A DNA stretch of 64,000 bases from a phage. Location: assembly GCA_020773975.1 (NCBI GenBank), contig GCA_020773975.1_3638.1, one strand, 5' to 3'. The notes beneath the pieces were generated by a model. The model did no database searches. It had not been told where the DNA came from and was given only the letters and a program-made list of their open reading frames with translations. The position numbers and the translations under genes were made by a program. Positions 3,374 to 61,080 of the stretch are shown here, one piece after another (position 1 is the stretch's first letter; every line of letters starts with the position of its first letter).

Positions 3374-4711
3374 ATGTTGCATGTTTTCAAAAAAGAAGAT
3401 TTTCAAAGAGAGTACGACATTTTGTGCTCTTTTATACCAAAAGGTGTTTATGATTTATTGTCGAAGCTGGATGTTAAGATAGCTGGCGGTGCAATAACCT
3501 CTTTGTTCTCTAATAGTAAAGTCAACGATCTTGATTTGTATTTCCCATCTTGGGAAAGCCTTGAGATATTCATTGCGTACATGATGGATAAAAATCTCTT
3601 AGGTGGAAAGTATGATTTAGCCGCACAGACAAACGGATGGGGAAATCAAAAAAGAACTTTTAGGTATTTTTATAACCTTGATAATGGGCAGGGTTCTCAT
3701 TTAGGTTTCACAGATCCTTTGTCAAGATGTAAAAATCTTCATTTTGAAGATGAAGATCTTCCAAACCTTACCAGAGTTGGTGTAACCGATAAGAGTGTGA
3801 TGCTGTACTTTGGGAAAGACCCTGTATTACAGTGTGTTGCTGTGGATGTGTTCAAAACAACAGAAGATATCTTTAGCAAAGTTGATTTTACAATCAACAT
3901 GGGCGCTTTTAACTTCAAGGATGGTGTGTGGGAATTTGATAGCAATTTCTTAAAACATATTGCTCAAAGGGTTTTAGTTGTAAATCATAAGACTGAATAC
4001 CCGATTATATCACTTTTGAGATCTGAAAAATATAAATCTCGTGGTTATACAATTTCGAAAAAAGAGACAATGAAACTGGCTATGACCATTGCTAGCCTTC
4101 AGATACAAAGTTGGGAATCGGCAAAGTCACATCTTAGCGGGATGTACGGAATGAAACTGTCTGATATCTTTGATGAGACAAAGCCGTTTTCACTTGATTT
4201 TTTGGTTGAGTGTCTAGACAGATTAGAATCTGGTTGCCAGCAGATAGACAAAAATGTTACCCCTGTGCAACCGTTGCCGTTTAATGATGTGTCCCAAGTT
4301 AATATGTTCAGTATTTTCCAAAGATTAAGAAAAGCAACAGGCAGGAAATACTTTACAAAACTATATGGGGTTTGTCCTGCTGAAGTTTTCTATCTTATGA
4401 TGCCAACAAAAGATACACATTATGTTGGGCTTCACAAAGAAGATATAGCAAATAATTTTCCAACTCTCAGACTTTATGTTGATGAAACGGAGGCAAGAGG
4501 AGAGTACAAAATTCTGTGTGAGAACGGAGAGATAGATGGCTATGGGTTTACAATATATCGGCCAGGTGCAGTTCTGTTAAAGGTTTCTGTAAGCGATACG
4601 TCAAAGATCCAATACGATATAGGTTATTTTAATGATTTGTGTATTTCTGAAAACAGAAAAACAACACTGAAAATTGAAAACATTATTGAGTGTGATGGGG
4701 ATATATCATGA
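3374..4711 (+). CDS. putative tRNA nucleotidyltransferase-like (CCA-adding/poly(A) polymerase family) protein
   Basis: ORF trimmed to ATG after AAGGA RBS; head motif KIAGGAITSLF...NDLDLYF aligns with GGAVRD...DxD, and SKVDFTINMGAF aligns with RRDxTINA at matching spacing. Confidence 0.5.
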   Translation: MLHVFKKEDFQREYDILCSFIPKGVYDLLSKLDVKIAGGAITSLFSNSKVNDLDLYFPSWESLEIFIAYMMDKNLLGGKYDLAAQTNGWGNQKRTFRYFYNLDNGQGSHLGFTDPLSRCKNLHFEDEDLPNLTRVGVTDKSVMLYFGKDPVLQCVAVDVFKTTEDIFSKVDFTINMGAFNFKDGVWEFDSNFLKHIAQRVLVVNHKTEYPIISLLRSEKYKSRGYTISKKETMKLAMTIASLQIQSWESAKSHLSGMYGMKLSDIFDETKPFSLDFLVECLDRLESGCQQIDKNVTPVQPLPFNDVSQVNMFSIFQRLRKATGRKYFTKLYGVCPAEVFYLMMPTKDTHYVGLHKEDIANNFPTLRLYVDETEARGEYKILCENGEIDGYGFTIYRPGAVLLKVSVSDTSKIQYDIGYFNDLCISENRKTTLKIENIIECDGDIS

Positions 4712-5109
4712 TATGGTTTAAAACGCTGTTAACTTTCTTTTCTAAGAACATAAAACAGATAGGTGTTGTTTTGTGTTGTGTGATGCTCGTTTGGGGTGTT
4801 GTGGAGATAAAGCATTGGTATAATGACCAGTTAACATCGTCATACAACGCAGGTGTCAGCGACACTGATCTTAAATGGGAGAGGATTAACCAGCAAGTTC
4901 GGGATCATAATAACGCTTTTAAAAAACAACAGCAGGATAAGATCGATGAGTTGTCAACCATGTTGGTGAAAGAGAGAGAAATTAATAACCAACTGAAAGA
5001 AGACCTTGATAAAAAGGTTAAAAGTTATAGCAAAACACAAGCAGGAAAACAGGTTTGCCTAGATAACCAGTTTGTTGATATTTATAACGATAGTCTGGGG
5101 GTGAAATGA
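4708..5109 (+). CDS. putative i-spanin (Rz-like)
   Basis: N-terminal TM helix followed by charged coiled-coil-like periplasmic domain; overlaps next gene start. Confidence 0.5.
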   Translation: MIWFKTLLTFFSKNIKQIGVVLCCVMLVWGVVEIKHWYNDQLTSSYNAGVSDTDLKWERINQQVRDHNNAFKKQQQDKIDELSTMLVKEREINNQLKEDLDKKVKSYSKTQAGKQVCLDNQFVDIYNDSLGVK

Positions 5110-5399
5110 AAAAGTGTGTCATCATGGTTCCTTTTCTATTATTGATGTTAATAGGGTGCACTTCACCACCTGAGAGAGTTGTTCCTGTTGCAAAAGAGAT
5201 CATAATAAGCGATATCTTAGCAAGACCACCCGCTGAGGCTATGATACCACCGAAAGAACCTGAAAAATTGCCAGGTGGTCTTAGTAATGCAGATGCTATC
5301 GAGGTGATTAAGAAAAACAACATTAAGGCTGCTGAAGATCGTATGAGATTAAGAACGTTACAGCAGTATGTGAAGACAATATTTTCTTCAGATAAGTAG
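5106..5399 (+). CDS. putative o-spanin (Rz1-like), proline-rich signal-peptide protein
   Basis: Signal peptide ending LIGC then Pro-rich mature region; immediately follows the i-spanin candidate. Confidence 0.45.
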   Translation: MKKCVIMVPFLLLMLIGCTSPPERVVPVAKEIIISDILARPPAEAMIPPKEPEKLPGGLSNADAIEVIKKNNIKAAEDRMRLRTLQQYVKTIFSSDK

Positions 5400-5494: not shown

Positions 5495-6841
5495 TTGAGT
5501 AAAGTATTTGGACCTGCCAGTCCTAAACAAAAAATGATTTTGGAGAGTAAAGCCCAAATTCTAATAATTGGCGGGGCCGCCGGGTGTTTGTCTAAAGACC
5601 ACGAGGTGTTGACACCATCTGGCTGGATTAAGATATCAGAATGGTCAGGGCAGGACATTCTGCAATATGATAAAGCCACTGGGGAGGCTAAATTTATCCC
5701 TCCTTTAGAGTTTGTTAAACTCCCTTGCGACAAACTTACAAGAATAGAAGGTAATGGCATTTGTCAAGAGCTATCTGACGAACATACTGTGATTTATAAA
5801 CCAGACTATAAATCACAGCCAAGAACACTTTCTTTTTCTGAAGTGGCAGAAAGACATAACAACTCTGTTAAAAAAGGTTGGACAGGTAAGTTCATAACTA
5901 CATTTAACTATGATGGGCCTGGGATAGACATGACAGAAGGGGAATTAAGGCTTCAGGTTGCTGTCATGGCTGATGGGAGAGTTGTTAAAGAAGGGAAAGA
6001 TAATTATACACAGATGCGCTTTGCTAAAAAGCGTAAATATGACCGCTTAATCGAACTTTGTAAAAAGTTTGGATTAAGATATGAAGACAGAGGATCAAAA
6101 CCCAGTGAAAGATATACCACTGGGGAACAGTACGAGGTCATTGTATGGCCTAAATATCCTGATAAAAAATTTACAGAGAAATACTATCAGTGTTCAAATG
6201 AACAACTGGAGATAATACTTGATGAGATTTTTCATTGGGATGGTTCTTTTTGTAAGCCATATGGCGGTAAAACACATAACAGCTTTACAGGTAGATATTT
6301 TACTGCTCATAAGACGAACGCTGATTTTATTCAGTTTGTAGGATCTTCTCTTGGTTATAATACCACCATAAGCCATGACACAAGAAGTGGAAAGGACAGT
6401 TATACTGTTAATATTATGGCTAGAGGAAAAGGATTAAGGTCACTGGCTAATAAAGACAGAAAAGCTGAGTTTAAAGCGTTTACACCTACGGATGGGTTTA
6501 AATACTGCTTTGTAACACAAACAGGTTTCTTTGTTACCAGACTGGAAGATTGTGTGGTTGTCACTGGGAATAGTGGAAAATCATATCTCCTACAATTGAT
6601 GCCGCTTGCTTATGTCGATGACCCGCAGACAGCATGTATAATGTTTCGTAGGACAACACCTCAATTGACAGGTGCAGGTGGACTTTTTGATACAGCGAAA
6701 AGTATTTATTTGCAACTCGATAAGGAATGGAAGCCGAAGTTCAGGGAGAAAGCTCTGGAAGCAATTTTCCCATCTGGGGCAAAGGTGTTGTGGAGACACA
6801 TGGAGTATGAGAATAACAAATTAGATCATCAGGGTGAATAG
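5495..6841 (+). CDS. terL: terminase large subunit, N-terminal coding segment (P-loop ATPase) containing an in-frame intein
   Basis: TTG start after GGAGG RBS; Walker A split as IIGGAAG-[intein]-SGKSY; lies directly upstream of portal; ORF runs to a stop inside intron-like sequence, real exon end probably 6817-6829. Confidence 0.7.
   Translation: MSKVFGPASPKQKMILESKAQILIIGGAAGCLSKDHEVLTPSGWIKISEWSGQDILQYDKATGEAKFIPPLEFVKLPCDKLTRIEGNGICQELSDEHTVIYKPDYKSQPRTLSFSEVAERHNNSVKKGWTGKFITTFNYDGPGIDMTEGELRLQVAVMADGRVVKEGKDNYTQMRFAKKRKYDRLIELCKKFGLRYEDRGSKPSERYTTGEQYEVIVWPKYPDKKFTEKYYQCSNEQLEIILDEIFHWDGSFCKPYGGKTHNSFTGRYFTAHKTNADFIQFVGSSLGYNTTISHDTRSGKDSYTVNIMARGKGLRSLANKDRKAEFKAFTPTDGFKYCFVTQTGFFVTRLEDCVVVTGNSGKSYLLQLMPLAYVDDPQTACIMFRRTTPQLTGAGGLFDTAKSIYLQLDKEWKPKFREKALEAIFPSGAKVLWRHMEYENNKLDHQGE
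5585..6571 (+). mobile_element. intein (329 aa) with LAGLIDADG-type endonuclease motifs in the terminase P-loop
   Basis: Starts with Cys (CLSKDHEVLTPSGW), ends VVVTGN followed by Ser; internal LQVAVMADG and LDEIFHWDG motifs; removal restores GGAAGSGKS. Confidence 0.7.
6809..6817 (+). repeat. 9-bp direct repeat GAGAATAAC (copy 1) flanking the terminase intervening region
   Basis: Identical 9-mer at 8778-8786; joining the copies puts exon 1 and the C-terminal segment in frame (MEYENN-PDYLAF). Confidence 0.5.
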
Positions 6842-14956: not shown

Positions 14957-16234
14957 ATGACAGCAACTACAGGTGTTGGCGGGTTAATTTATGGTCGTGC
15001 ATTAGTTGACCAGAAAACAGGAAAGAAAATAAATTTTGATGAGTTGGGTGGTGGGAATATCCCAGAAGATATAACAGAACTTATTGCATCTAAAGCCCCA
15101 ATAGAAAGCCCTTCATTTACAGGGAAACCTCAAGCACCAACACCATCGGATGATGCGGTAGGGAAGGAAATAACTAATGTAGAGTATGTTAAAAATCTAA
15201 TTGCAAAACTAGTTAACTCAGCACCTGAGACATTGGACACTCTCAATGAGTTGGCAAAAGCATTAGGTGATGACCCCAATTTTGCGACAACGGTCACTAA
15301 TGAACTGGCAGGTAAACAGCCGCTGAACGACGTGCTGACGGCAATCAGTGAACTGAAGCAACGGGCAGATAATCTTCTGTGCTTTAATCAGGACGGGAAT
15401 GCTTCACTGTCCCCGCTGTCAGAAAAAGCCCGGTCACTGCTGGCACTGGACACGACAGAAGCCATGCGCACGGAGCTTGAACTGAAGGCTGCCGCGACAA
15501 TGGATGTTCAGAGCGATATCCGTGACCGCACAGAAGGGCGTCTGGCCCTGCCGGGAGCATATGGTTACGGGCGTCTGTTCGCGTACGATGAGCACCTTTA
15601 CGTGAACGACGAACCCCAGGGCAGGAACTGGATAAAGAGTGCCACGCCGGGACGGTATGCGCTTACTTTTCGCGATGTCTCCTGGCTGCTTCCCGGCGTG
15701 AAAACATTTTCCGGCATTATTGATGTACTCCAGTCACCATTCACCATCAGTGATGATGAGCGTGGTGCCAAAAACATGACACTGGTCTGTTATAACCAGC
15801 GTGGTGATGGTGAAAACAGCATTCATATAGTCAGCTACAGTGTTTCCGGTGATGAGCTGAGCTTCACATCGTCCACTGTTGTCTCAGACGGTCTTTCACT
15901 GGCCCGGTTGATGTCGGTGACGACAGGAGAGGGGCCGTCATCCTGGTACAGGTATCCGGATGTTGGCGCGCCAGTTCTGGCTGTGTATCAGGGAACAGCG
16001 GCCGGAGATAACTCAGTCAAAATAGGCCTGGGAGATACGGTGCCGGGGTCACGACTTGGTCCGGTGAGTATTACCTGTACATTCAGTCAGTCTGGCATAT
16101 CGGAGTCCACACCGTCTGTAAACACAGGAGGTGCAGGTGCATACAGTTTTCCGGGGCGTTATCAGGCGCTGTCCGGGTGGAAGCAGGGAGGGTCAGCCCG
16201 TGGCTGTATCTGCCTGTTCGTGCGCATTGAGTAA
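14957..16234 (+). CDS. tail fibre protein, mosaic (phage-like N-terminus, GC-rich C-terminal receptor-binding region)
   Basis: Conserved fibre motif SPSFTGKPQAPTPSDD...LAKALGDDPNFATT; composition switches to GC-rich at about 15300. Confidence 0.6.
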   Translation: MTATTGVGGLIYGRALVDQKTGKKINFDELGGGNIPEDITELIASKAPIESPSFTGKPQAPTPSDDAVGKEITNVEYVKNLIAKLVNSAPETLDTLNELAKALGDDPNFATTVTNELAGKQPLNDVLTAISELKQRADNLLCFNQDGNASLSPLSEKARSLLALDTTEAMRTELELKAAATMDVQSDIRDRTEGRLALPGAYGYGRLFAYDEHLYVNDEPQGRNWIKSATPGRYALTFRDVSWLLPGVKTFSGIIDVLQSPFTISDDERGAKNMTLVCYNQRGDGENSIHIVSYSVSGDELSFTSSTVVSDGLSLARLMSVTTGEGPSSWYRYPDVGAPVLAVYQGTAAGDNSVKIGLGDTVPGSRLGPVSITCTFSQSGISESTPSVNTGGAGAYSFPGRYQALSGWKQGGSARGCICLFVRIE

Positions 16235-16249
16235 CGGGGTAAATAAGGC

Positions 16250-16825
16250 ATGAAAATCAGAGCGGTAAAAGGCATCAGAAACGCACATTATCTTGAAAAT
16301 GGTGCGGTTGACTGCGAGGTGTTATTTGAAGGCGAAACGGAATTCGTTCCGTATACCGCCATGCGTGACGACAGCGCCCGGACAGGGCGGTATATCTGGC
16401 GGGAGCTGCAAAGCGGCAAATGGGGTGAAGTCGCGCCGTTTACCGTCACGCCTGAACGTATCGCTGCGGCAAAAGCAGCCAAAAAACAGGAAATCGAGGC
16501 ATGGCAAACAGAGCAGGAAGCGCTGGCGTTCACGTTCGAATGGAACGGTCGAACGTGGAATGGAGGTGCGTCCTCAGTATCCCGTCTCACGCCAGCGGTG
16601 ATGACGGCAAAGTCAGAGAGTCGCGAGGAGACAGAGTGGAGTGATGCGGAAAACAGGCGGGTGAAGCTGTCGTTGCAGAAACTGGAAGAGTTGCTTACAG
16701 CGATGGTGCAGGAGCAGGTTATTCGCAACGATGAGATTTATCGCCGGCAGCGGGAGATGAAGGATGAACTGAATAACCTGGAGGATTTAAGCTCAATCAG
16801 AGCGATGACGATTAGCAGCAGTTAG
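16250..16825 (+). CDS. tail fibre assembly protein (Tfa-like chaperone)
   Basis: GC-rich; lambda Tfa-like segments (FTFEWNGRTWNGG, C-terminal DEIYRRQREMKDELNNLEDLSSI); directly downstream of the fibre gene. Confidence 0.55.
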   Translation: MKIRAVKGIRNAHYLENGAVDCEVLFEGETEFVPYTAMRDDSARTGRYIWRELQSGKWGEVAPFTVTPERIAAAKAAKKQEIEAWQTEQEALAFTFEWNGRTWNGGASSVSRLTPAVMTAKSESREETEWSDAENRRVKLSLQKLEELLTAMVQEQVIRNDEIYRRQREMKDELNNLEDLSSIRAMTISSS

Positions 16826-17192
16826 CGGTCAATTAGCCCAGAAAAAAAAACGCGAAGTTACAAAAGAGTGGAGAAAACGGGAAGAAAGCTCTACAACTAT
16901 TGTTTCCTATAATGGTGCAAGGTATGATGTTGATAATGCAACTCTTGATCGTATTTATCCAGTATTATTAGCACAAAAAGCATCCTCGGCTAGGCAAGCT
17001 GTGATTTGGAGAGATGTTGATAACAGACCTGTTGAGATGAGTAGCTCTGAATTTGAAAATCTTGTTGTAGCTATGTCTTCCGAGTTGGCAACCAAGAATG
17101 ATACAATATACACTAGGCAACGAGAGATGAAAGACCAAGTGCTTTCAGCCTCTACAGTTGAGGAATTGCAAAGTATAACAATTGGGTGGTAG
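16826..17192 (+). pseudogene. remnant 3' portion of an AT-rich tail fibre assembly gene (displaced tfa)
   Basis: Frame open from about 16809 with no start; translation is homologous to the C-terminal half of 16250..16825 (DTIYTRQREMKDQVL vs DEIYRRQREMKDELN); ORF track shows only 17001..17192. Confidence 0.45.
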
Positions 17193-17494
17193 CTACGGAT
17201 TATAAGGATAAAGTTGTCAATGCTGAAGTTATACTTCCAGATGGGCATAGTATTGGAGGATCAGGACTCCCAAACCAATCTTTTAAATTATACACAGAAG
17301 ACACCGCGACCATAAAACTTTCAGGTAATGGTGAAAAAGCAACACCACTTAAAGGTGTTGTTGTGGTGGCAGAAGATGAAAATAATGCTCTCCAAGCTGG
17401 AGATAATGGGTTAGCTGGAGTAATACCCGAAGCAGGTGCTGATGAAGCCTCACATGAATTTAATTATGTTGTTCAATATAGTTACACAAGTTAA
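17186..17494 (+). CDS. hypothetical protein (102 aa)
   Basis: ORF track. Confidence 0.3.
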   Translation: MVATDYKDKVVNAEVILPDGHSIGGSGLPNQSFKLYTEDTATIKLSGNGEKATPLKGVVVVAEDENNALQAGDNGLAGVIPEAGADEASHEFNYVVQYSYTS

Positions 17495-17505: not shown

Positions 17506-17763
17506 ATGGCAACAAATGGCGTAGCAGGTAAAGTATATGCATCAAGCCTTATTGATATAAAAACTGGAAAATCTGTGAAAATCGAAGATATTGTTGCTGG
17601 AGGCTCAGATAGCTATGTTCTTCCAGCGGCTACGGAATCAGTATTAGGAGGTGTTAAGAAAGCACAAACACAAGCAGATTCTGTGGCTTCAGATGTCTCT
17701 ACGTTGGTCAACGATTTTAATGCTTTGCTTGCCAAATTGAAAGCCGCTGGTATTATGTCGTGA
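17506..17763 (+). CDS. small protein sharing the N-terminal motif of the tail fibre (85 aa)
   Basis: MATNGVAGKVYASSLIDIKTGKSVKIEDIVAGG aligns with the N-terminus of 14957..16234; RBS AAGGAGA. Confidence 0.4.
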   Translation: MATNGVAGKVYASSLIDIKTGKSVKIEDIVAGGSDSYVLPAATESVLGGVKKAQTQADSVASDVSTLVNDFNALLAKLKAAGIMS

Positions 17764-17765
17764 TA

Positions 17766-17792
17766 AAAAGACCCTTCGGGGTCTTTTATTTT
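17766..17792. terminator. bidirectional rho-independent terminator
   Basis: AGACCC-TTCG-GGGTCT hairpin flanked by A-run and T-run; sits between convergent genes. Confidence 0.65.
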
Positions 17793-18190
17793 AGGATTCC
17801 TTGCACTCCTTTATCCAAGTTTGCATTAATATACACTTCCCGCCCATCTTTGTAAAAAGTGCAGATGTATTTTCCAGTGTAAGATTGTTTTCCTGAGATA
17901 ATTGCGACATCATCAAAATATTGATATGCTTCCGCCTGTTCTGCTATCCTACCCTCGAAACCTGATGACACAACAATAACGCCTGGTTTAAATGCTTCTC
18001 TAAATCTCTTATCGCAAGATAATTGTACAATACGGCTAATTGCCTCATCTTTTTCTTCTGGCGACAACCAACTTGCCTCGACAGATTTATAATCATTAAT
18101 ATCTGGGTTCTTTTTCACATATTGGAAAGTTCCCGCTGCAATAACAGCACAGACGCACAGACCAATTGTAATTTTTAAAATATTTTTCAT
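17786..18190 (-). CDS. secreted (signal-peptide) protein of unknown function, moron-like
   Basis: Only minus-strand gene in the structural module; N-terminal signal peptide MKNILKITIGLCVCAVIAAG; GGAGG RBS; own promoter and terminator. Confidence 0.55.
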   Translation of the reverse strand: MKNILKITIGLCVCAVIAAGTFQYVKKNPDINDYKSVEASWLSPEEKDEAISRIVQLSCDKRFREAFKPGVIVVSSGFEGRIAEQAEAYQYFDDVAIISGKQSYTGKYICTFYKDGREVYINANLDKGVQGILK

Positions 18191-18216
18191 AAATCCTCCA
18201 TAGCAATTGTTGTGTT

Positions 18217-18245
18217 TATCTTACCTACGGAATTTTTCGTGTCAA
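18217..18245 (-). promoter_or_regulatory. putative sigma70-type promoter for the secreted-protein gene
   Basis: On minus strand TTGACA, 17-nt spacer, AAGATA, about 25 nt upstream of the RBS. Confidence 0.35.
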
Positions 18246-18317
18246 GCGTTTTTAATGACAAAAATTGTATTTTGTGATAATATAGTTACTGACAAGTAAC
18301 ATAAAATGGAGAGTTAG

Positions 18318-18836
18318 ATGACAGACCAAGAAATTGTTGATTACATCAGGCTCCTGCTTGGGTCAATATCCCCAGAGGCACTACCTGATGAAGTTATCAT
18401 GGCATTCCTTGAGATGGAGAAAAAAAGAGCAAACTGGCCTAACCCATCATCCACGCCTTGCGACATGTGGAAAGTGGTCTATAACACAATGGTGGCTGTA
18501 TTAAGATGGTTAATTCTTCAAGAGATAAATTCTGGCGAGGCATCCATCACAGAAAGATTGGAAAAGATAGGTGATGAGACAATACAGGTGAAAGGCGGCT
18601 CATCATACCAGAACTGGAAAGATTTTCTGGACTGGCTACTGCAAAACCCTGATTACGTCAATAGTTGTCTGAATGGTGTCTCTGGTTTGATTATTGTAGG
18701 TGGTGTGCGGCAGGATGAGTTTTGGCGTGTCAAGAACAATCCAAACTCCAGAAGCCCGTTTGATGTTTCTGGTATAGTTCCTCAAACAGGAGTCCCCGGT
18801 ATTCCTCGGAGATACCCAAAACACAGGTATTATTGA
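18318..18836 (+). CDS. hypothetical protein, possible head-tail connector component (172 aa)
   Basis: ORF track; position between fibre block and sheath; upstream ATGACA/TAATAT promoter-like sequence. Confidence 0.35.
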   Translation: MTDQEIVDYIRLLLGSISPEALPDEVIMAFLEMEKKRANWPNPSSTPCDMWKVVYNTMVAVLRWLILQEINSGEASITERLEKIGDETIQVKGGSSYQNWKDFLDWLLQNPDYVNSCLNGVSGLIIVGGVRQDEFWRVKNNPNSRSPFDVSGIVPQTGVPGIPRRYPKHRYY

Positions 18837-23183: not shown

Positions 23184-23188
23184 TCTCA

Positions 23189-23222
23189 AGCCAGGTTCCT
23201 TCTCGGAACCTGGCTTTTTTAT
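23189..23222 (+). terminator. rho-independent terminator
   Basis: AGCCAGGTTCC-TTCTC-GGAACCTGGCT hairpin followed by TTTTTT. Confidence 0.65.
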
Positions 23223-35252: not shown

Positions 35253-35567
35253 ATGTCTATTGACCTATTTGCTATCTTAAAAGCCGTATGGGGCGTATTG
35301 ACGTTTTTCTTAGTTGGTGTTCTGAAGCTAACATACTCAGACTATAAAAAGACACAACAACGTCTTGATGAACTTGATAGGGACATCATAAGAATTAAGG
35401 CAGAAATGGTCACTAAAGAAAAACTTGATGAGATTCTTGATAAAAAACTGAAAGCTGTCCGCGATGATGTTTCAGATTTTAGAAAAGACTTAAAAGAGGA
35501 TGTAAGCAGTTTGAGAGTTGATCTTATAGACCGGCTTAAAATTCTTATAGAGAGCCAAATGAAATGA
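35253..35567 (+). CDS. small membrane protein, N-terminal TM plus coiled coil (104 aa)
   Basis: Hydrophobic N-terminus LFAILKAVWGVLTFFLVGVL followed by charged helical region. Confidence 0.4.
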   Translation: MSIDLFAILKAVWGVLTFFLVGVLKLTYSDYKKTQQRLDELDRDIIRIKAEMVTKEKLDEILDKKLKAVRDDVSDFRKDLKEDVSSLRVDLIDRLKILIESQMK

Positions 35568-36040
35568 TAAGTTCTGCACTGTACTTTATATGCTTTGCAG
35601 TGCTACTTCTTGATAATGATAAAGGTATCCGAACCATGTCAGTACTTGGCATGGTTCATATCCTGATAGAGAATATATTGTACTGGTGGTTCAGTTCCCA
35701 TATCTACGCATTTGATTTATCACTCTACCTAACTTTTTGTTGGTTTTTGGATATATCTCTGATTTTCTTTACTGCATGTGTTTTGACAGGATGGAGAAAA
35801 AAGCTAATGCTTGCACTATCTCTACCTGTTTTGTTTTGCCAAATTTTAATTATGCAGTTCCCATTTATTTTACCGAACGCATTAGGCTTCACGATAAATT
35901 CATCATATCCAACATTTATGGAAGTTCTTTTATTATGCGCTGCATACAAAACAGGTACAATAAAAGAATTGTTTAAAACTTCTGTTGTTGTTGTTGGTTT
36001 CATAATTATAGCCAGAATTGTTCCTGGAGTAAATTATTGA
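35564..36040 (+). CDS. polytopic membrane protein (158 aa)
   Basis: At least four hydrophobic helices; overlapping start with upstream gene. Confidence 0.4.
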   Translation: MISSALYFICFAVLLLDNDKGIRTMSVLGMVHILIENILYWWFSSHIYAFDLSLYLTFCWFLDISLIFFTACVLTGWRKKLMLALSLPVLFCQILIMQFPFILPNALGFTINSSYPTFMEVLLLCAAYKTGTIKELFKTSVVVVGFIIIARIVPGVNY

Positions 36041-36055
36041 GGATTCTAATGTATT

Positions 36056-36319
36056 ATGATAAAATCAATATTGAAATTTTTAAAAGATCTTGTCAGATCC
36101 CCAGTAAATCCAGAGAAAGCCTCCCACACAAAATTTTGGAGCAATATCGGATTAGCTGCAATGACAGCAGTTTTTTTGGATTGGGGTTTCAAAGGCACAT
36201 TAACGGAGTGGTATATGTGGGTGTATGCCCCCACAGTAGCTGCCCCGCAGTTAATAAGTAAGTTAATATCTCTACGCTGGGGTGTAGAAGCACAACGTAG
36301 GGAAGAGTCAGACCAATAA
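36056..36319 (+). CDS. small membrane protein (87 aa)
   Basis: Central hydrophobic segment IGLAAMTAVFLDWGF; ORF track. Confidence 0.35.
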   Translation: MIKSILKFLKDLVRSPVNPEKASHTKFWSNIGLAAMTAVFLDWGFKGTLTEWYMWVYAPTVAAPQLISKLISLRWGVEAQRREESDQ

Positions 36320-56212: not shown

Positions 56213-57517
56213 CTACTTACCAGGGAAAGTCTCTTCATAAAACTTAACAAGACGTTGATCAACGATAATATCTTTATCCCTGATCCTACGTAATAACCTT
56301 AATCCTTTTGCACTTGTTGCTCTGCTAAAAGCCACGTATGCCATGCCTGGTGCAAAAGTCCCATTGCCAAAGTCAACATTAACTTCCGGTAATGTTAATC
56401 CTTGTGCTTTGTGTATTGTAACAGCCCACCCAAGACGAATCGGCAAAGCCCTGTACTCACCAATGATAATCTTCTCAATTTCTTCAGTTATTGTACCATC
56501 TGGGTTTTTCACCTTTATGGGGTTATACTCAACATTTTCCCACACATAAGGTTCTACGTCAACAATATCACCATTCTCAAGGCGGACTTTAACACTGTAT
56601 TTACGTAGTTCAACAATCTCCCCACGGGAACCATTCACATAACTTGGTTCATCCAGACCTCTGGGGTCATTGACAGTAATCATCACCTGCGCCCCCTCTT
56701 TCAGATATAACTCTTCAGGTACAGGTGTCTGGTTAAATTGCCCTGTCTTTTTTGCCTTGTAAACTGTTGGGATTCCAGGTATTGCATCAAAACGTTTTTT
56801 GTTTATTTTGTCTGCTGCCGCGTTTGTTGAGGTTATTGTTATAGCATCCAAGGGTTTTCCCATGTTGTAGCAATAAGTATTCATAAACTCAACAATCTCT
56901 GGAATACGCTCTCCCTTGCGAAGGCAATTAAGAAGTGTTGAAAAATGAACACTACTTTGCCTGTATATTTTATCAAGAAATACAGGATATGGGTTCAATT
57001 CTTTCCATGTTTTAGAAAAGCAACAAAGTTCTGTGTCGTGGAACTGGTAGTAGATCTCTTTTTCTTCACCTTTCAAAACAGGTGGATTCTGTAAGAAATC
57101 CCCGAACATGCACACCTGCAAACCACCGAAAGGCTCTTTAGGTTTTTTACGTGCCAGACGACATTTCATGTCCATTTCCCAAAGTTTGTCTGCCCTGAAC
57201 ATACTTATCTCTTCAATAATAAGAATCTTCAGTGCTTTACTTTTAAGCAACTTCTTAGCCTTTGCCTTTATCTCTTCTGCATCTTTTTTAGTGGACACGC
57301 CTAATGAAAGTCCGAAAGCTCTGTGTGCCGTCATACCATCCACATTAATGGCAGCAGCCCCTGTAGGGGCCACTGTCAAGACTGAACCTGCGTATAAGGA
57401 TTGGATAGTTTTTATGGTATGGCTCTTTCCAGCACCTGCATAACCACTGATAAACACATTTTCACCGGACATTATAGCGCCAAGAGCTTCTTCAACGCCA
57501 ACCCCGTATTGAGACAT
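56213..57517 (-). CDS. SF1B DNA helicase (Dda/RecD-like)
   Basis: Walker A GYAGAGKSH, GDFLQNPPV, C-terminal AVTIHKAQGLT and YVAFSRA motifs. Confidence 0.65.
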   Translation of the reverse strand: MSQYGVGVEEALGAIMSGENVFISGYAGAGKSHTIKTIQSLYAGSVLTVAPTGAAAINVDGMTAHRAFGLSLGVSTKKDAEEIKAKAKKLLKSKALKILIIEEISMFRADKLWEMDMKCRLARKKPKEPFGGLQVCMFGDFLQNPPVLKGEEKEIYYQFHDTELCCFSKTWKELNPYPVFLDKIYRQSSVHFSTLLNCLRKGERIPEIVEFMNTYCYNMGKPLDAITITSTNAAADKINKKRFDAIPGIPTVYKAKKTGQFNQTPVPEELYLKEGAQVMITVNDPRGLDEPSYVNGSRGEIVELRKYSVKVRLENGDIVDVEPYVWENVEYNPIKVKNPDGTITEEIEKIIIGEYRALPIRLGWAVTIHKAQGLTLPEVNVDFGNGTFAPGMAYVAFSRATSAKGLRLLRRIRDKDIIVDQRLVKFYEETFPGK

Positions 57518-58530
57518 CAGTCCTCCTTAGATTCTTGTAGATAAATCTCTTCAAGAATTTTACCCTGTACACCAATGACAATAATATCTGGTGCACCTGC
57601 TGGTTTTGGTGTTCCTGTCAGAACTTCATAACGACAGCAACGGCATTTTTTCTGGTTATAGTCATAAGGGACACTGACAATATCTGCCGGATCCACAGAT
57701 ACTTCTACAAGTGCCCTTGAAGTCTTCTCAAAGGTAGCGGCATAGTCAATAGATGCAACATGCAAACCTTGGCTACATGTTCTATTGGGATTATCCTCAA
57801 CCATATTACGTGGCATGGAAATCACTTGCCCTTTATAATTAGGAACTTTACCTGTATGACAATCTCGTGGGCCATCTACAGTTATCTTAATTTTCTTGTA
57901 TGCCTTAATATTTCCGTTTTCAAGGATCTCAAGATCATTATGTTTTACAAAATCATAAAGCATTTTAACAGAAGCATACGACGGGTTGTGTAGCAACTTC
58001 TGCATGAATTTGACATATCGTTCGTCAAAGCAATCATTCTCAATATCTTTAATGATTCGTTTAGCAATACTGCTTTCCTGTTTTTGACCGTGCCAATATA
58101 AAACGTTATCTATCAATACTAAATTATCACCAAAATCAATGGTCTTTTTCTTTTCTGCTTCTTTCTCTTCCAAAATACGTTGTACAGCAGCATCTATTCC
58201 TCCTGTCCAAAGGATAACACCAACTTCTTTGAAGATGGGGCTGCTACTATTTAGAGTATATTGTTCACCATTTAACAAAGTGATATGGATATTGTCTTGG
58301 GTAACAAGGACAATTGGTTGTGCAAGAGTATGCACTGGCTTCATAATACCTACAGGATCTTCCTTAGCCTTTTTGGTTGTCGGCATTCCTTTTTTGGGTG
58401 CAACTGTCCAGCGTTTAAGAACATTTAGACCACGATCAACAACCACCATATTATTTTTCTTAGCGTATTCACGAGCTTCACGACGTGACATGAATAAAGG
58501 ATTACTCACCTTTTTCTCCTTTGCTGTCAA
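57517..58530 (-). CDS. putative rIIB-like protein
   Basis: Assigned by adjacency to and co-orientation with the rIIA-like gene, and size (337 aa); no independent motif. Confidence 0.35.
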   Translation of the reverse strand: MTAKEKKVSNPLFMSRREAREYAKKNNMVVVDRGLNVLKRWTVAPKKGMPTTKKAKEDPVGIMKPVHTLAQPIVLVTQDNIHITLLNGEQYTLNSSSPIFKEVGVILWTGGIDAAVQRILEEKEAEKKKTIDFGDNLVLIDNVLYWHGQKQESSIAKRIIKDIENDCFDERYVKFMQKLLHNPSYASVKMLYDFVKHNDLEILENGNIKAYKKIKITVDGPRDCHTGKVPNYKGQVISMPRNMVEDNPNRTCSQGLHVASIDYAATFEKTSRALVEVSVDPADIVSVPYDYNQKKCRCCRYEVLTGTPKPAGAPDIIVIGVQGKILEEIYLQESKED

Positions 58531-60514
58531 TAAATTTACGATACTCTAGCATCTCTGGAGTATTGAAATGCCTAATATTAATGTATTTTAACAATGGGTA
58601 ACGATCTTTCTTAATCTGTAGTAGCTTTTTCCCAATTCTCTTCTTGGCCTCTATCATCCTTAATGCTTTCTCACGACTATCTTCGTAGCCAGGAACTGAC
58701 CAATAACTGGGTATGTTTACCTTCATCTCCCATTTTGGGAAACTAGCTACCATCACACCAAAATAGCTAAGCTCTTTAACAATGTTATGATACTCATGAT
58801 CTTTCCCCACTTCTTGATATAAATGATATTCAAGAAGGTTAGTTTTTGCAAGAGCATGAATATCCTCCTCAGTTATAACCCGTGCCTCATCTGGCAGCCA
58901 ACTTGATCTGTTTAAAGGCACAATATATAACTTACCAGCTACACCAAGATTCTTAAGAAATGTTGGTGGTTGCTTTCTCCAAGATGTTCTAAGATTTGTT
59001 CTAAGATTGGAAACGTATCCTAACGGGCATAATCCTTTCACCTGCCCACCCCAGTAGACCATAGCCGCCTCAATATCTTCAAACTGAGCACGGGAAATGC
59101 GGGTTACATCTACGGAGCCATCTTGGTTGATTATCCAAACTTTATGACCCGGTTCGTAATAACCATAGCCACCATACTTTTTATCTGCTTTTTGCACTGG
59201 TCGTTTTTCAAGTTCAGATAACTTGAAAATCATCCCTTCAAAGAATTTATCACTGTATAAGGACAGAGCGTAATCAGCATCGGTTATAAATGATCTCTTA
59301 CCAAACTTCTCTGCGAGCCAGTTACATTTAGAGCGCACATACTTGTGATCATCATTGTAAACCAGTGGATGACCATTCATCAACTCTGCGTATGAATATC
59401 TCTCATCCTTACCACGGCGTGATCCTTCGCCACCATATGTTTCACAGTAATCTATGTAAGAACCATCAGTATAATTCTTGAACTTATTTGCAATAAAAGC
59501 AGCACCGTACTTTGTAGCGAAGTACCCGCCAATAAACTTCATATGATCAAGAACTGCTTTTAACGTTGGCAGATCGCTTAATTCTTTTGTGATTTCTTCT
59601 CCGCGAAGTCGGATAGCTTTCGTCACAAAACTTTCAAGTTTATCACGAAATCCCCCGTCATTCTTTCCTTCTACTGTCCACTCCCTGCCAGGATCTACAT
59701 TACAATCCCCAATAGGGATAGATACCGTCATCATAGGCAGTTCTTTGCGAGTAGAGAGATAATCAGAGAGATATGGTTGTTGCCCCATGATGACAACACT
59801 ATCAGCGTTTCTTGAAATGCTACTATACATCTCAAGAACCCAGCCAGTCTCCTCATCCTCATACCGATACTGAACAGGATAAGTGCGATCTTCAATCTGA
59901 GTTTTAACAAAAGGATCGTTAATAATATATGGGAATTTGGCATAACGAAGGCATTTTACAATAGCCTGTCGATAAGCTCCTGTTTCCCAAGTGTTTACGT
60001 TAAATTTAACCTCTACACCATTCTCCTCTGTTGTTTCACAACAGAATAAAGGTACAACCTCTGGTATTCCGCTGTTTTTGTGAACAGAGTATGTTGTTTT
60101 CACTCCATCTTTAACAGAAACAACTGTGAACATATCTGTTACTGCAAGAGGCGCTTTTGACCCAATACCTTTCGCGCCAATCAGATCATTACTGTTTCTT
60201 TTTGTGGACTTACCAATCATCATGAATGTACGTGTTACCATCTCATGATCCATACCTAACCCTGTATCCTTAACAGAATACCAAGGTTCCAAGTCTGTTG
60301 GTGAGTGGATGATGATGGGTTTATCAGAACACCCTGCCTCTGTATGAGCATCTACAGCGTTGAAGAGAGGCTCTCGTACTGCTGCCAAAGGTTTATCTTT
60401 ATAAATTCCATCGATAAGAATACTGAAAGTCTCAGGATTCATTGCAATTGATGCTTGGTATCTTTCTACGTTCCCAGTTACCTGAACTTTGTTGTCAGAT
60501 CTTTGAATAATCAT
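58502..60514 (-). CDS. rIIA-like protein with N-terminal GHKL-type ATPase motifs
   Basis: N box LFNAVDAHTEAG, G1 box VKDTGLGM, G2 GAKGIGSKAPLAV; 670 aa. Confidence 0.55.
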   Translation of the reverse strand: MIIQRSDNKVQVTGNVERYQASIAMNPETFSILIDGIYKDKPLAAVREPLFNAVDAHTEAGCSDKPIIIHSPTDLEPWYSVKDTGLGMDHEMVTRTFMMIGKSTKRNSNDLIGAKGIGSKAPLAVTDMFTVVSVKDGVKTTYSVHKNSGIPEVVPLFCCETTEENGVEVKFNVNTWETGAYRQAIVKCLRYAKFPYIINDPFVKTQIEDRTYPVQYRYEDEETGWVLEMYSSISRNADSVVIMGQQPYLSDYLSTRKELPMMTVSIPIGDCNVDPGREWTVEGKNDGGFRDKLESFVTKAIRLRGEEITKELSDLPTLKAVLDHMKFIGGYFATKYGAAFIANKFKNYTDGSYIDYCETYGGEGSRRGKDERYSYAELMNGHPLVYNDDHKYVRSKCNWLAEKFGKRSFITDADYALSLYSDKFFEGMIFKLSELEKRPVQKADKKYGGYGYYEPGHKVWIINQDGSVDVTRISRAQFEDIEAAMVYWGGQVKGLCPLGYVSNLRTNLRTSWRKQPPTFLKNLGVAGKLYIVPLNRSSWLPDEARVITEEDIHALAKTNLLEYHLYQEVGKDHEYHNIVKELSYFGVMVASFPKWEMKVNIPSYWSVPGYEDSREKALRMIEAKKRIGKKLLQIKKDRYPLLKYINIRHFNTPEMLEYRKFIDSKGEKGE

Positions 60515-60534: not shown

Positions 60535-61080
60535 TTATGCGTCAGGATGCTTGTAAAAAATATGATTCCCAACCTTCACTGTTTTCACCATGACTTTTGC
60601 CCAAGATGGCCTAACAGTAGTTGCATGATAGTACGTTGCTGATTTTGTGTAGTCAAGAGCCTTGTATAAACTTTTGTGGTCTTTATGCAATCTCATCAAG
60701 ATTTTAGCATAAAATTTAGCTCTTAACCACCTATCCTTTTCATAGACTTTAAAGGATTGCCCACCGAATGTCCAAGAGAATTGCCCCGGCTGGTAAACTA
60801 CTTTCTTGATAGTATGCGGGAAATTCTTGTCATCTTTTCTATTCAATGTGACAAAAGCGACACCCATCATTCCATAATCACCTTCTCCTCTTCCCTCTTT
60901 ATACAAGTTACAGGCAAGAATATTAAGCTCTGTATCATTCTTCTTGCAAATGTGAAGAACTTGGGGCTTCTTTGCACTTTCTTTGGCTAGAACAGGGGTA
61001 ATAGACAGAGAAAGTGCACAGCAAACTGCAAATAATAAAGATCTTATTTTCAAAACTAACTCCAGACAAATAAGCCCCAT
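60535..61080 (-). CDS. cell-wall hydrolase (SleB/CwlJ-like) with N-terminal signal-anchor; candidate endolysin
   Basis: ORF track 60535..61155 trimmed to internal Met (MGLICLELVL...); catalytic region ILACNLYKEGRGEGDYGMMGVAFVTLNR...VVYQPGQFSW. Confidence 0.55.
   Translation of the reverse strand: MGLICLELVLKIRSLLFAVCCALSLSITPVLAKESAKKPQVLHICKKNDTELNILACNLYKEGRGEGDYGMMGVAFVTLNRKDDKNFPHTIKKVVYQPGQFSWTFGGQSFKVYEKDRWLRAKFYAKILMRLHKDHKSLYKALDYTKSATYYHATTVRPSWAKVMVKTVKVGNHIFYKHPDA

What the first reader, a model, noticed from the sequence alone, without database searches (positions are those of the whole stretch)
17786..18256. Oppositely oriented secreted-protein moron inside the virion module with its own sigma70-like promoter
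This is the only minus-strand gene between 5495 and 38730. It encodes a 134-aa protein with a typical signal peptide, has a strong GGAGG RBS, a TTGACA-17-AAGATA promoter-like sequence and shares a bidirectional terminator with the fibre block. Genes with this architecture next to receptor-binding genes are often superinfection-exclusion or receptor-masking factors; a periplasmic lysozyme-inhibitor-like function is another possibility.
Basis: inference. Interest (0 to 1): 0.55.

Follow-up and report, generated by a model that had tools for sequence, protein, structure and literature searches.

The report
Reverse-strand phage membrane-protein gene
A small gene set backwards inside the head-and-tail gene block of an rV5-like coliphage has its own conserved host-type promoter and terminator and encodes a membrane-anchored periplasmic protein; it is real but already annotated in related phages, and its function is untested.

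Summary
ORF 17786..18190 (-) encodes 134 aa. It has a GGAGG ribosome-binding site, a TTGACA-16-TAAGAT promoter and a terminator hairpin shared with the upstream fibre gene. It is the only credible minus-strand gene in the roughly 38-kb plus-strand block.

The window is an Avunavirus-like phage (Vequintavirinae). The gene is the orthologue of Av05_0081 and PVP-SE1 gp66 ("membrane protein", PHROG 11434). It sits at this exact position and orientation in Avuna-, Seuna- and Mydovirus and in metagenomic relatives. It is absent there from rV5, CR3, Henunavirus, Kashira and LTH01.

TTGACA and TAnnnT are invariant across genera while the spacer diverges. dN/dS is about 0.1.

The N-terminus is a 16-22-residue hydrophobic segment, more like a signal anchor than a typical cleaved signal peptide. 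It has no lipobox. The AlphaFold model (pLDDT 87) shows a small cystatin/NTF2-like periplasmic domain with two invariant cysteines.

There is no sequence or fold link to lysozyme inhibitors, spanins or known exclusion proteins. The gene does not co-vary with the swapped fibre genes, so receptor masking is unlikely.

Best guess, at low confidence: an early-expressed envelope protein that acts at the periplasmic face of the inner membrane, as an exclusion factor or possibly a lysis-timing factor. Modest interest.

The parts
17786..18190 (-). CDS, 134 aa. Orthologue of Av05_0081, PVP-SE1 gp66 and KP12_125 ('membrane protein', PHROG 11434).
   Evidence: ORF list. PHROG 11434 E = 2e-63 over the full length. 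95.5% aa identity to phage 18-1-2/TH18 and 84% to Av-05. dN/dS 0.09-0.13.
18116..18181 (-). Codons 4-25: N-terminal hydrophobic segment. Likely a signal anchor (N-in/C-out); a cleaved signal peptide is not excluded.
   Evidence: Uncharged run of 16 aa here and 19-22 aa in homologues; Kyte-Doolittle 19-mer mean 2.05-2.35. The model has a single helix over residues 2-27. GenBank note for the PVP-SE1 orthologue: one transmembrane domain by TMHMM and Octopus. The N-terminal Cys residues are not conserved, so there is no lipobox.
17789..18109 (-). Codons 28-134: periplasmic alpha+beta domain. It has a long helix (44-64), a five-stranded antiparallel sheet (72-125) and a C-terminal helix. Invariant residues include C59, C110 and the SWL motif.
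18195..18199 (-). Shine-Dalgarno GGAGG, 4 nt upstream of the ATG.
   Evidence: Sequence. A GGAG/GAGG core is conserved in all homologous loci.
18218..18245 (-). Sigma70-type promoter TTGACA-16 nt-TAAGAT. The -35 box is 18245..18240 and the -10 box is 18223..18218.
   Evidence: Scan. TTGACA and TAnnnT are invariant in 13 loci across Avuna/Seuna/Mydovirus and metagenomic relatives, with a variable spacer sequence and a fixed 16-17 nt spacing.
18246..18256 (-). Conserved A-rich stretch ATTAAAAAC(G/A)C directly upstream of the -35 box. Possibly UP-element-like.
   Evidence: Invariant or near-invariant columns in alignment A3. The role is an inference.
17766..17787 (.). Bidirectional intrinsic terminator hairpin (9-bp stem, CGAA/TTCG loop, U-runs on both strands). 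It is shared by the reverse gene and the 85-aa mini-fibre gene.
   Evidence: Folds at -11.4 (minus) and -16.1 (plus) kcal/mol, z = -2.2 and -3.3. Conserved, with one compensatory stem change. Annotated as two terminators in PVP-SE1.
18255..18283 (+). Divergent promoter-like site ATGACA-17 nt-TAATAT with TGn, for the adaptor/neck/tail operon. Its -35 box lies 9 bp from the -35 box of the reverse gene.
   Evidence: Scan. TGTCAT and the TATCA block are invariant in alignment A3.
17506..17763 (+). Context: 85-aa mini-fibre gene (matches the phi29 head-fibre C-terminal region), convergent with the reverse gene. The two genes are found together, and the five other Vequintavirinae lineages examined lack the reverse gene (two of them were scanned and also lack the mini-fibre).
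   Evidence: PF11133 E = 3e-17. Its N-terminus is shared with the 425-aa fibre, E = 6e-7. Present in KB57 and absent from rV5 and CR3.
18318..18836 (+). Context: head-tail adaptor gene, divergent from the reverse gene.
   Evidence: The orthologue in L003 carries PF26075 Phage_Adaptor_PhiTE. 269 phage records hold a homologue.

Best explanation
SHOWN
- A monocistronic unit is embedded backwards between the last capsid-proximal fibre gene and the head-tail adaptor gene of an Avunavirus-like phage.
- It has a conserved sigma70-type promoter, an SD sequence and a bidirectional terminator.
- It is under purifying selection.
- It encodes a 134-aa protein. The N-terminal hydrophobic segment should insert it N-in/C-out in the inner membrane, or export it. 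The remaining ~105 residues form a small cystatin/NTF2-like domain with two invariant cysteines.

INFERRED
- The perfect -35 box, the independent terminator and the antisense placement isolate the gene from the late operon. Unmodified host RNA polymerase could therefore transcribe it as soon as the genome enters.
- The domain sits in the periplasm, and the two cysteines probably form a disulfide.
- The protein acts at the periplasmic face of the inner membrane of the infected cell. The most likely role is a superinfection-exclusion or 'immunity' factor that interferes with tail-tip penetration or DNA delivery by later-arriving phages. This would be functionally analogous to T4 Imm/Sp, HK97 gp15 or lactococcal Sie2009, but not homologous to any of them.
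- The anatomy is secure (about 0.9). The functional assignment is a low-confidence best guess, and the confidence value given refers to it.
For: Gene, SD, promoter and terminator are present.

Conservation of the regulatory elements:
- Promoter -35 and -10 key bases are invariant across 13 loci while the spacer varies.
- The terminator is conserved, with a compensatory change.

Selection and synteny:
- dN/dS is 0.09-0.13. dN is 4-30 times that of neighbouring structural genes, as expected for an accessory, host-facing protein.
- Synteny and reverse orientation are invariant in every locus examined: Avuna-, Seuna- and Mydovirus records and six metagenomic contigs. tblastn finds the family in 66 phage records.
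- The gene is absent at the same site in rV5, CR3, Henunavirus, Kashira and LTH01, so it is an accessory gene and not a core virion gene.

Topology and fold:
- Positively charged N-terminus (K2, K6), a transmembrane-length hydrophobic run, and net-neutral downstream flank.
- Model pLDDT 87.
- C59 and C110 are invariant.

Distribution: phage-only. No relatives were found in 185,579 bacterial species genomes, and there were only four true representatives among 1.84 billion proteins.

Lysis functions are accounted for elsewhere:
- Spanins at 4708..5399.
- Exported SleB-type endolysin at about 60.5-61.1 kb.
Against: - There is no experimental datum for any family member.
- There is no sequence or structural similarity to any characterised exclusion protein.
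- Expression timing is unknown. In rV5, sigma70-like promoters occur throughout the genome, including late regions (PMC3606486), so a sigma70 promoter does not prove early expression.
- Whether the signal is cleaved is unresolved.
- Several Vequintavirinae genera manage without the gene.
Confidence: 0.3

Rival explanations
1. Lysis-timing regulator of the T4 RI type (antiholin-like). An exported or anchored periplasmic domain would bind the periplasmic part of a holin or another lysis protein and delay lysis.
For: The architecture matches RI and T-like lysis proteins: an N-terminal export signal followed by a small periplasmic globular domain with cysteines. The phage carries rIIA/rIIB homologues and an exported SleB-type endolysin that needs post-export control. 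In T4, the genes t and rI are also unlinked from the endolysin gene, and t lies next to the fibre genes (established knowledge).
Against: There is no homology to RI, T or any Pfam/PHROG lysis family. rV5-like phages share the exported SleB-type hydrolase but lack this gene. No cognate holin with a periplasmic domain was identified. Whether these phages show lysis inhibition is not known.
Confidence: 0.18
2. Periplasmic inhibitor of an envelope hydrolase. The target could be a host periplasmic protease or peptidoglycan hydrolase, an incoming tail lysozyme, or the phage's own exported endolysin. This uses the cystatin-like scaffold and corresponds to the reader's 'lysozyme-inhibitor-like' idea.
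Confidence: 0.12
3. Receptor-masking factor matched to the adjacent fibres (T5 Llp or Cor type). It would block the cell-surface receptor to prevent superinfection and loss of progeny on debris.
For: The gene is convergent with a fibre gene and has its own promoter, as T5 llp does next to the receptor-binding gene (established knowledge). It evolves faster than neighbouring structural genes.
Against: There is no lipobox and no conserved N-terminal Cys, so no outer-membrane targeting is apparent. The gene stays constant (95.5% aa identity) while the distal fibre genes next to it are swapped for unrelated GC-rich sequence. Mydoviruses keep the gene although their block has only two short genes and no long fibre gene. 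The constant partner is a head-fibre-like mini-fibre, not a recognisable receptor-binding protein.
Confidence: 0.05
4. Morphogenetic helper or virion component linked to the mini-fibre. It could be a membrane-tethered assembly factor for the capsid-proximal fibres.
For: The gene is found together with the PF11133-like mini-fibre gene in every locus examined, and rV5 and CR3 lack both. dS values for the two genes against Av-05 are both higher than for the neck genes, which suggests a shared history.
Against: Virions assemble in the cytoplasm, whereas this protein's domain is predicted to be periplasmic. Opposite orientation with a separate sigma70 promoter is unusual for an assembly factor. The only 'virion' hint is a 12-kDa SDS-PAGE band in KP12 that was assigned by size alone (PMC9902359).
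Confidence: 0.04

Closest known systems
Av05_0081 (YP_009111155), PVP-SE1 gp66 (YP_004893872), GAP31_206, 4MG_064, KB57_068, KP12_125; PHROG 11434
   Same: These are orthologues at 38-96% aa identity. They have the same length, the same position between the mini-fibre and adaptor genes, the same reverse orientation, and the same promoter and terminator.
   Different: Nothing essential differs. All are annotated only as 'membrane protein' or 'hypothetical'. Some records misname the gene as 'adenosine deaminase' or 'putative portal protein'. None has a tested function.
Phage morons encoding exclusion proteins, e.g. HK97 gp15 (Cumby et al. 2012, cited in PMC9902359)
   Same: A small membrane protein gene with its own promoter and terminator, inserted in the late or virion region. 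It is absent from related genomes at that site.
   Different: HK97 is temperate and gp15 is expressed from the prophage, whereas this phage is virulent. There is no sequence similarity. The composition here is not foreign. The gene is fixed across three genera.
T5 Llp and the Cor family (receptor-blocking lipoproteins next to receptor-binding genes)
   Same: Independent transcription beside fibre or receptor-binding genes, and an envelope-targeted product.
   Different: Llp and Cor are lipoproteins acting on FhuA at the outer membrane. This protein has no lipobox. It does not co-vary with the fibres and has no homology to them.
T4 Imm, Sp (spackle) and RI
   Same: Small envelope or periplasmic proteins made by a virulent myovirus from host-type promoters. 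They act on incoming phage or on lysis timing.
   Different: There is no homology. From established knowledge, not tested here, Sp and RI periplasmic domains are helical and Imm is polytopic. Here the domain is an alpha+beta cystatin/NTF2-like fold.
Bitopic inner-membrane proteins with a periplasmic NTF2-like domain (VirB8/TraE/CagV, DotI/IcmL). By recollection only, also the colicin M immunity protein Cmi.
   Different: The domain is much smaller (one long helix plus five strands). Sequence identity is 8-13%. There is no type IV secretion context. Cmi did not appear in the listed matches, so that resemblance is a lead and not a test.

Membership tests
PHROG 11434 (phage 'membrane protein', moron/host-takeover category) | Full-length match to the family HMM | tested here: met
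   E = 2.1e-63, residues 1-134 against profile positions 1-134 of 134.
Moron (independently transcribed insert in a late operon) | Own promoter upstream of the gene | tested here: met
   TTGACA-16-TAAGAT lies 27 nt before the ATG. Its key bases are invariant in 13 loci. This is sequence-level evidence only; no transcript data exist.
Moron (independently transcribed insert in a late operon) | Own factor-independent terminator downstream | tested here: met
   A conserved bidirectional hairpin with U-runs. It is annotated in PVP-SE1.
Moron (independently transcribed insert in a late operon) | Absent between the same flanking genes in related phages | tested here: met
   rV5, CR3, pEa_SNUABM_56, Kashira and LTH01 have no reverse gene upstream of the adaptor gene.
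Moron (independently transcribed insert in a late operon) | Nucleotide composition distinct from the surrounding genome (sign of recent acquisition) | tested here: not met
   GC is 36.5% against a window mean of 40.5 +/- 3.8%, which is the 10th percentile. The gene lies in backbone-homologous DNA.
Sec-type cleaved signal peptide (secreted protein) | Positive n-region, 7-15-residue h-region and a small-x-small cleavage site | tested here: inconclusive
   The n-region MKNILK is present. The uncharged run is 16 aa here and 19-22 aa in homologues. Small residues at positions 18-20 (AAG, GAG, AGS, SGG) could serve as a cleavage site, but they are followed by conserved hydrophobic residues, Tyr and Lys-Lys. 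SignalP was not available. TMHMM and Octopus call one transmembrane domain in the PVP-SE1 orthologue.
Bacterial/phage lipoprotein (Llp/Cor-type, o-spanin-type) | Lipobox [LVI][ASTVI][GAS]C with a conserved Cys | tested here: not met
   The sequences IGLC and LCVC have Leu or Val at position -1, and the cysteines are absent in Seuna/Mydovirus homologues.
Two-component spanin, i-spanin subunit | N-terminal transmembrane domain plus a coiled-coil periplasmic domain, with an adjacent or embedded o-spanin lipoprotein gene | tested here: not met
   The i-spanin and o-spanin of this phage type are other genes, at window 4708..5109 and 5106..5399 (Kongari et al. 2018 supplement; tblastn 92% identity). 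No lipoprotein ORF is embedded or adjacent. The domain is mostly beta-sheet.
Periplasmic lysozyme inhibitors (Ivy, PliC/MliC, PliG, PliI; T4 Sp) | Sequence or fold membership in one of these families | tested here: not met
Cystatin superfamily protease inhibitors | Cystatin fold (helix packed across a five-stranded antiparallel sheet) | tested here: met
Cystatin superfamily protease inhibitors | Conserved QxVxG hairpin-loop motif that contacts the protease | tested here: not met
   The loop between the two long strands reads QSYTG in the window but EGFKG, KPYHA or VLATG in homologues, so it is not conserved.
T4 RI antiholin / T holin families | Homology to RI or to Phage_holin_T, and a cognate partner | tested here: not met
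   No Pfam or PHROG match to these families. A partner was not searched for exhaustively. Only the topological resemblance holds.
Known anti-phage defence or exclusion proteins in PADLOC | HMM match | tested here: not met
   No families matched at E <= 1.

The most novel reading that the evidence does not exclude
The gene would be the founding, uncharacterised member of a Vequintavirinae-specific family. Its members would be early, host-polymerase-driven, inner-membrane-anchored periplasmic proteins with a minimal cystatin/NTF2-like domain. They would carry out a mechanistically new envelope function, for example blocking genome delivery by rival myoviruses at the inner membrane, or neutralising a membrane-embedded host defence sensor. 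The function would be unrelated in sequence and fold to Imm, Sp, Llp, Cor, gp15 and Sie2009.
Probability: 0.25. Interest if true: 0.5.

Novelty: new member of a known kind. Interest (0 to 1): 0.3.

Why it matters
Vequintavirinae (relatives of rV5, PVP-SE1 and Klebsiella mydoviruses) are widely used in phage-therapy and biocontrol cocktails. A conserved exclusion or lysis-timing factor would affect how such phages behave when mixed, how they compete, and how large their bursts are.

The locus is also a clean natural example of a divergent promoter pair plus a bidirectional terminator that insulates one accessory gene inside a late operon.

The gene is already in the databases as a 'membrane protein', its fold is generic, and no evidence here points to an unexpected mechanism. 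Its value is as a well-defined candidate for a simple wet-lab test, not as a surprise.

Tried and rejected
- i-spanin: rejected. The spanin pair of Av-05-type phages is defined in Kongari et al. 2018 and maps to window 4708..5399.
- Lipoprotein: rejected. There is no lipobox and no conserved Cys.
- Holin of the lysis cassette: no support. KP12 (Mydovirus) has separate lysis cassettes (PMC9902359).
- Distant homologues P0008-P0010 from the exhaustive search: spurious. Their scores are summed weak matches to unrelated repeat proteins (Ig-like, Sel1, PEGA).
- Profile searches against PDB sequences and Pfam found nothing.
- Foldseek against PDB and BFVD found only the family itself (A0A859AJP1) and non-significant matches.
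- The afdb50 library was unavailable.
- Bacterial genomes hold no relative. IMG/VR holds only the same phages.
- Rfam finds nothing in 16.5-19.5 kb.
- The 12-kDa 'putative membrane protein' virion band in KP12 was assigned by size only, so it is not evidence.
- The PVP-SE1 genome paper could not be retrieved.
- Literature searches found no functional or transcriptomic study of this gene.
- Co-occurrence with an exported endolysin: rejected. rV5-like phages have the same SleB-type enzyme without this gene.
Full report
**What is at the coordinates**

The minus strand carries an ATG ORF at 17786..18190, encoding 134 aa. GGAGG lies 4 nt upstream of the ATG, at 18199..18195.

A TTGACA box sits at 18245..18240. 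The best -10 register is TAAGAT at 18223..18218 with a 16-nt spacer.

Immediately after the stop codon, a 9-bp stem with a four-base loop (17766..17787) folds on both strands. The energies are -11.4 and -16.1 kcal/mol, with z-scores of -2.2 and -3.3. U-runs lie on both sides. The convergent 85-aa gene (17506..17763, +) ends 2 nt from the hairpin.

All other minus-strand ORFs of 90 aa or more between position 1 and 38731 lie within or overlap longer plus-strand ORFs. Annotated relatives show only this one reverse gene in the block.

**Is it more than chance?**

A consensus scan alone is not convincing. It found 29 promoter-like sites in 12 kb against 23.3 +/- 5.4 in shuffles. Two further observations make the case.
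- Only seven TTGACA-N16-18-TAnnnT sites exist in the whole window on both strands, and this one sits in a 127-bp intergenic region.
- In nine aligned loci and four further ones, TTGACA is invariant. So are the T, A and final T of the -10 box and an A-rich stretch upstream. The 16-17-nt spacer and the leader diverge freely.

The SD core and the terminator are equally conserved. The terminator stem shows one compensatory change, GACCC/GGGTC to GGCCC/GGGCC.

The same intergenic region holds a second invariant block. On the plus strand it reads ATGACA-17-TAATAT with a TGn extension (18255..18283). This forms a back-to-back promoter pair whose -35 boxes are 9 bp apart, serving the adaptor/neck/tail operon.

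**What genome this is**

The region is 95% identical in DNA to Escherichia phages 18-1-2, 19-1-2, 24-2-1 and TH18, and 86% identical to Av-05 (Vequintavirinae, Avunavirus).

The gene is Av05_0081, annotated 'membrane protein'. It is misannotated as 'adenosine deaminase' in the 18-1-2 group and as 'putative portal protein' in two Salmonella phage records. It matches PHROG 11434 end to end at E = 2e-63. That family is labelled 'membrane protein' in the moron/host-takeover category.

Pfam, NCBIfam, PADLOC and PDB sequence searches give nothing.

**Distribution**

tblastn finds the gene in 66 phage records. All belong to hosts Escherichia, Salmonella, Cronobacter, Enterobacter, Klebsiella, Raoultella and Proteus, and the records checked are Avunavirus, Seunavirus and Mydovirus.

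The large protein searches agree that the family is small.
- The 5.8-billion-protein search found about ten clusters.
- The exhaustive 1.84-billion-representative search found four true relatives.
- That search also returned three repeat proteins whose scores are summed weak matches to unrelated repeats. I regard these as spurious.

No relative exists in 185,579 bacterial species genomes.

In every locus examined, the gene lies in reverse orientation between a small terminal fibre gene and the adaptor gene. This covers Av-05, 18-1-2, PVP-SE1, GAP31, 4MG, KB57, Ro1 and six metagenomic contigs.

Five other Vequintavirinae lineages have nothing on the reverse strand at that site: rV5, CR3, Henunavirus pEa_SNUABM_56, Kashira and LTH01. 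rV5 and CR3 were scanned with Pfam and also lack the phi29-head-fibre-like mini-fibre.

So the gene is an accessory gene with moron architecture. It is an old, fixed one in this clade.

**Relation to the fibres**

Against 18-1-2 and Av-05, homology breaks at about 15340 and resumes at about 17416-17453. A short shared piece lies at 16862-17417.

The swapped part comprises the distal 425-aa fibre gene and the DUF4376 gene. Its GC content is 51-53%, against 40.5% for the window. The reverse gene lies outside this cassette, in backbone DNA. Its GC content is 36.5%, which is ordinary for the phage.

Mydoviruses retain the reverse gene although their block contains only two short genes and no long fibre.

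The constant partner is the 85-132-aa mini-fibre.
- It matches the C-terminal region of phi29 head fibre, PF11133.
- Its N-terminus matches that of the 425-aa fibre at E = 6e-7.

The block lies between the major capsid gene and the adaptor gene. The baseplate-linked tail fibres are at 31-38.7 kb.

These facts weaken the idea that the protein masks the receptor used by the adjacent fibres.

**Selection**

Against 18-1-2 and Av-05, dN/dS is 0.09 and 0.13. This is a real protein-coding gene under purifying selection.

Its dN is 4-30 times that of the adaptor, neck, terminator and sheath genes. Between genera it retains 38-55% identity, whereas the adaptor retains 75-82%.

**The protein**

The N-terminus has two lysines and then an uncharged run. 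The run is 16 residues here (ITIGLCVCAVIAAGTF) and 19-22 residues in homologues. The 19-residue Kyte-Doolittle means are 2.05-2.35, and 35-55% of the residues are Gly, Ala, Ser or Thr. The run ends in a conserved Tyr-hydrophobic-Lys/Met-Lys-x-Pro-Asp motif.

Small residues at positions 18-20 would allow signal-peptidase cleavage. However, the length and the conserved interfacial Tyr-Lys-Lys fit an uncleaved N-in/C-out anchor better.

The PVP-SE1 record notes one transmembrane domain by TMHMM and Octopus. I could not run SignalP, so this point stays open. Either way, the remainder of the protein should be periplasmic.

The N-terminal cysteines are not conserved, and the residue before each is Leu or Val. 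The protein is therefore not a lipoprotein.

The invariant residues are S40-W41-L42, E46, R53, C59-D60, F63, F67, G77, E84, Y108, C110, K114, G116 and L133.

**Predicted structure**

AlphaFold2 with the 11-sequence alignment gives mean pLDDT 87 and pTM 0.71. The elements are:
- a helix at residues 2-27
- a short helix at 34-38
- a long helix at 44-64
- five antiparallel strands at 72-125
- a C-terminal helix at 127-132

C59 lies in the long helix and C110 in a long strand. A helix-to-sheet disulfide is plausible, but I could not measure the distance.

- latexin, fetuin-B and NTF2-like proteins

Foldseek finds nothing significant in the PDB, and only a family member in BFVD.

The cystatin QxVxG motif is not conserved. 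No lysozyme-inhibitor family appears in the listed matches.

**Lysis genes are elsewhere**

- The Av-05-type i-spanin and o-spanin defined by Kongari et al. 2018 map to window 4708..5109 and 5106..5399.
- The endolysin is a Hydrolase_2/SleB-type enzyme at about 60.5-61.1 kb (-). It has its own N-terminal hydrophobic signal and sits next to rIIA/rIIB homologues.
- rV5-like phages, which lack the reverse gene, share that enzyme type.
- KP12, a mydovirus that carries the family, is reported to have separate lysis cassettes (PMC9902359).

**Mechanism**

The gene is insulated from the late operon by orientation, terminator and its own promoter. The promoter has a perfect -35 box that unmodified host polymerase should recognise. 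I therefore infer expression from the start of infection.

There is a caveat. In rV5, sigma70-like promoters are found across the whole genome (PMC3606486), so timing must be measured.

The product is placed at the periplasmic face of the inner membrane. For a virulent myovirus, the known jobs for such proteins are:
- blocking later-arriving phage at the penetration or DNA-entry step (T4 Imm/Sp; by analogy HK97 gp15 and Sie2009)
- tuning lysis (T4 RI)
- inhibiting an envelope enzyme

I rank exclusion at the entry step first, at about 0.3. The reasons are that the gene is accessory, fast-evolving, host-facing and phage-only, that it is independent of endolysin type, and that it is not tied to the receptor-binding cassette.

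The other readings rank lower:
- an RI-like lysis regulator, about 0.18
- an enzyme inhibitor, about 0.12
- receptor masking, about 0.05
- an assembly role, about 0.04

The remaining probability is 'something else'. None of these functions is shown.

**Novelty and verdict**

It is an already-annotated, conserved accessory gene of one Vequintavirinae clade, not a fresh insertion.

'Secreted' is probably 'membrane-anchored'. The receptor-masking and lysozyme-inhibitor ideas find no support. The gene is a reasonable, cheap wet-lab target but not a surprising finding. Interest is 0.3.

Noticed in passing
window 14957-16860: The 425-aa fibre gene and the 191-aa DUF4376 gene have GC 51-53% (GC3 up to 60%), against a window mean of 40.5%. 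This is exactly the stretch not shared with 18-1-2 or Av-05. It looks like a recent horizontal swap of a distal fibre plus its chaperone-like partner.
   Followed up: partly
window 16830-17494: The third fibre gene of Av-05 (545 aa) and 18-1-2 (593 aa) is represented here only by its ends. Positions 16862-17417 match their 5' part at 86-95% identity, and the roughly 1.5-kb middle is missing. Only short ORFs remain: 17001..17192 (63 aa) and a GTG ORF at 17186..17494 (102 aa). This may be a deletion derivative or a frameshifted gene.
   Followed up: partly
window 18255-18283 (+) and 18218-18245 (-): A back-to-back promoter pair with -35 boxes 9 bp apart. Both are invariant across three genera. 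The plus-strand partner (ATGACA-17-TAATAT with TGn) would restart transcription of the adaptor/neck/tail genes after the bidirectional terminator.
   Followed up: partly
window ~60535-61080 (-): The endolysin is a Hydrolase_2/SleB-type enzyme (PF07486, E = 4e-21). It has an N-terminal hydrophobic signal (KIRSLLFAVCCALSLSITPVLA|KE), so it is an exported or SAR-type endolysin. It sits next to rIIA (58502..60514) and rIIB (57517..58530) homologues. rV5-like and Mydovirus phages share this enzyme type.
   Followed up: partly
window 35564-36040 and 36056-36319 (+): Two further membrane-protein genes lie inside the baseplate-linked tail-fibre cluster, in the same orientation as the fibres. One is a polytopic 158-aa protein. 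The other is an 87-aa protein annotated 'membrane protein' in Av-05. Neither has a Pfam match. They may be holin candidates, by analogy with T4 gene t beside the fibre genes.
   Followed up: no
window 4708-5399 (+): A separated-architecture spanin pair (i-spanin 133 aa, o-spanin 97 aa) lies directly upstream of the large terminase gene at 5495..6841, far from the endolysin.
   Followed up: yes
L001/L023 (NC_025830.1, Av-05): In the Av-05 record, minus-strand replication-type genes precede the fibre block instead of the major capsid gene. This differs from the window, 18-1-2 and PVP-SE1, and the record is only 120.9 kb. It suggests a rearranged or misassembled reference.
   Followed up: no
GenBank records OK136180, OK181858, OK181861, ON075799, KR296684, MW006477: Orthologues of this gene are misannotated as 'adenosine deaminase' or 'putative portal protein'.
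   Followed up: no
window 23188-23216 (+): A strong 12-bp-stem intrinsic terminator lies just before the tape-measure gene. It matches the terminator annotated at the equivalent place in rV5.
   Followed up: no
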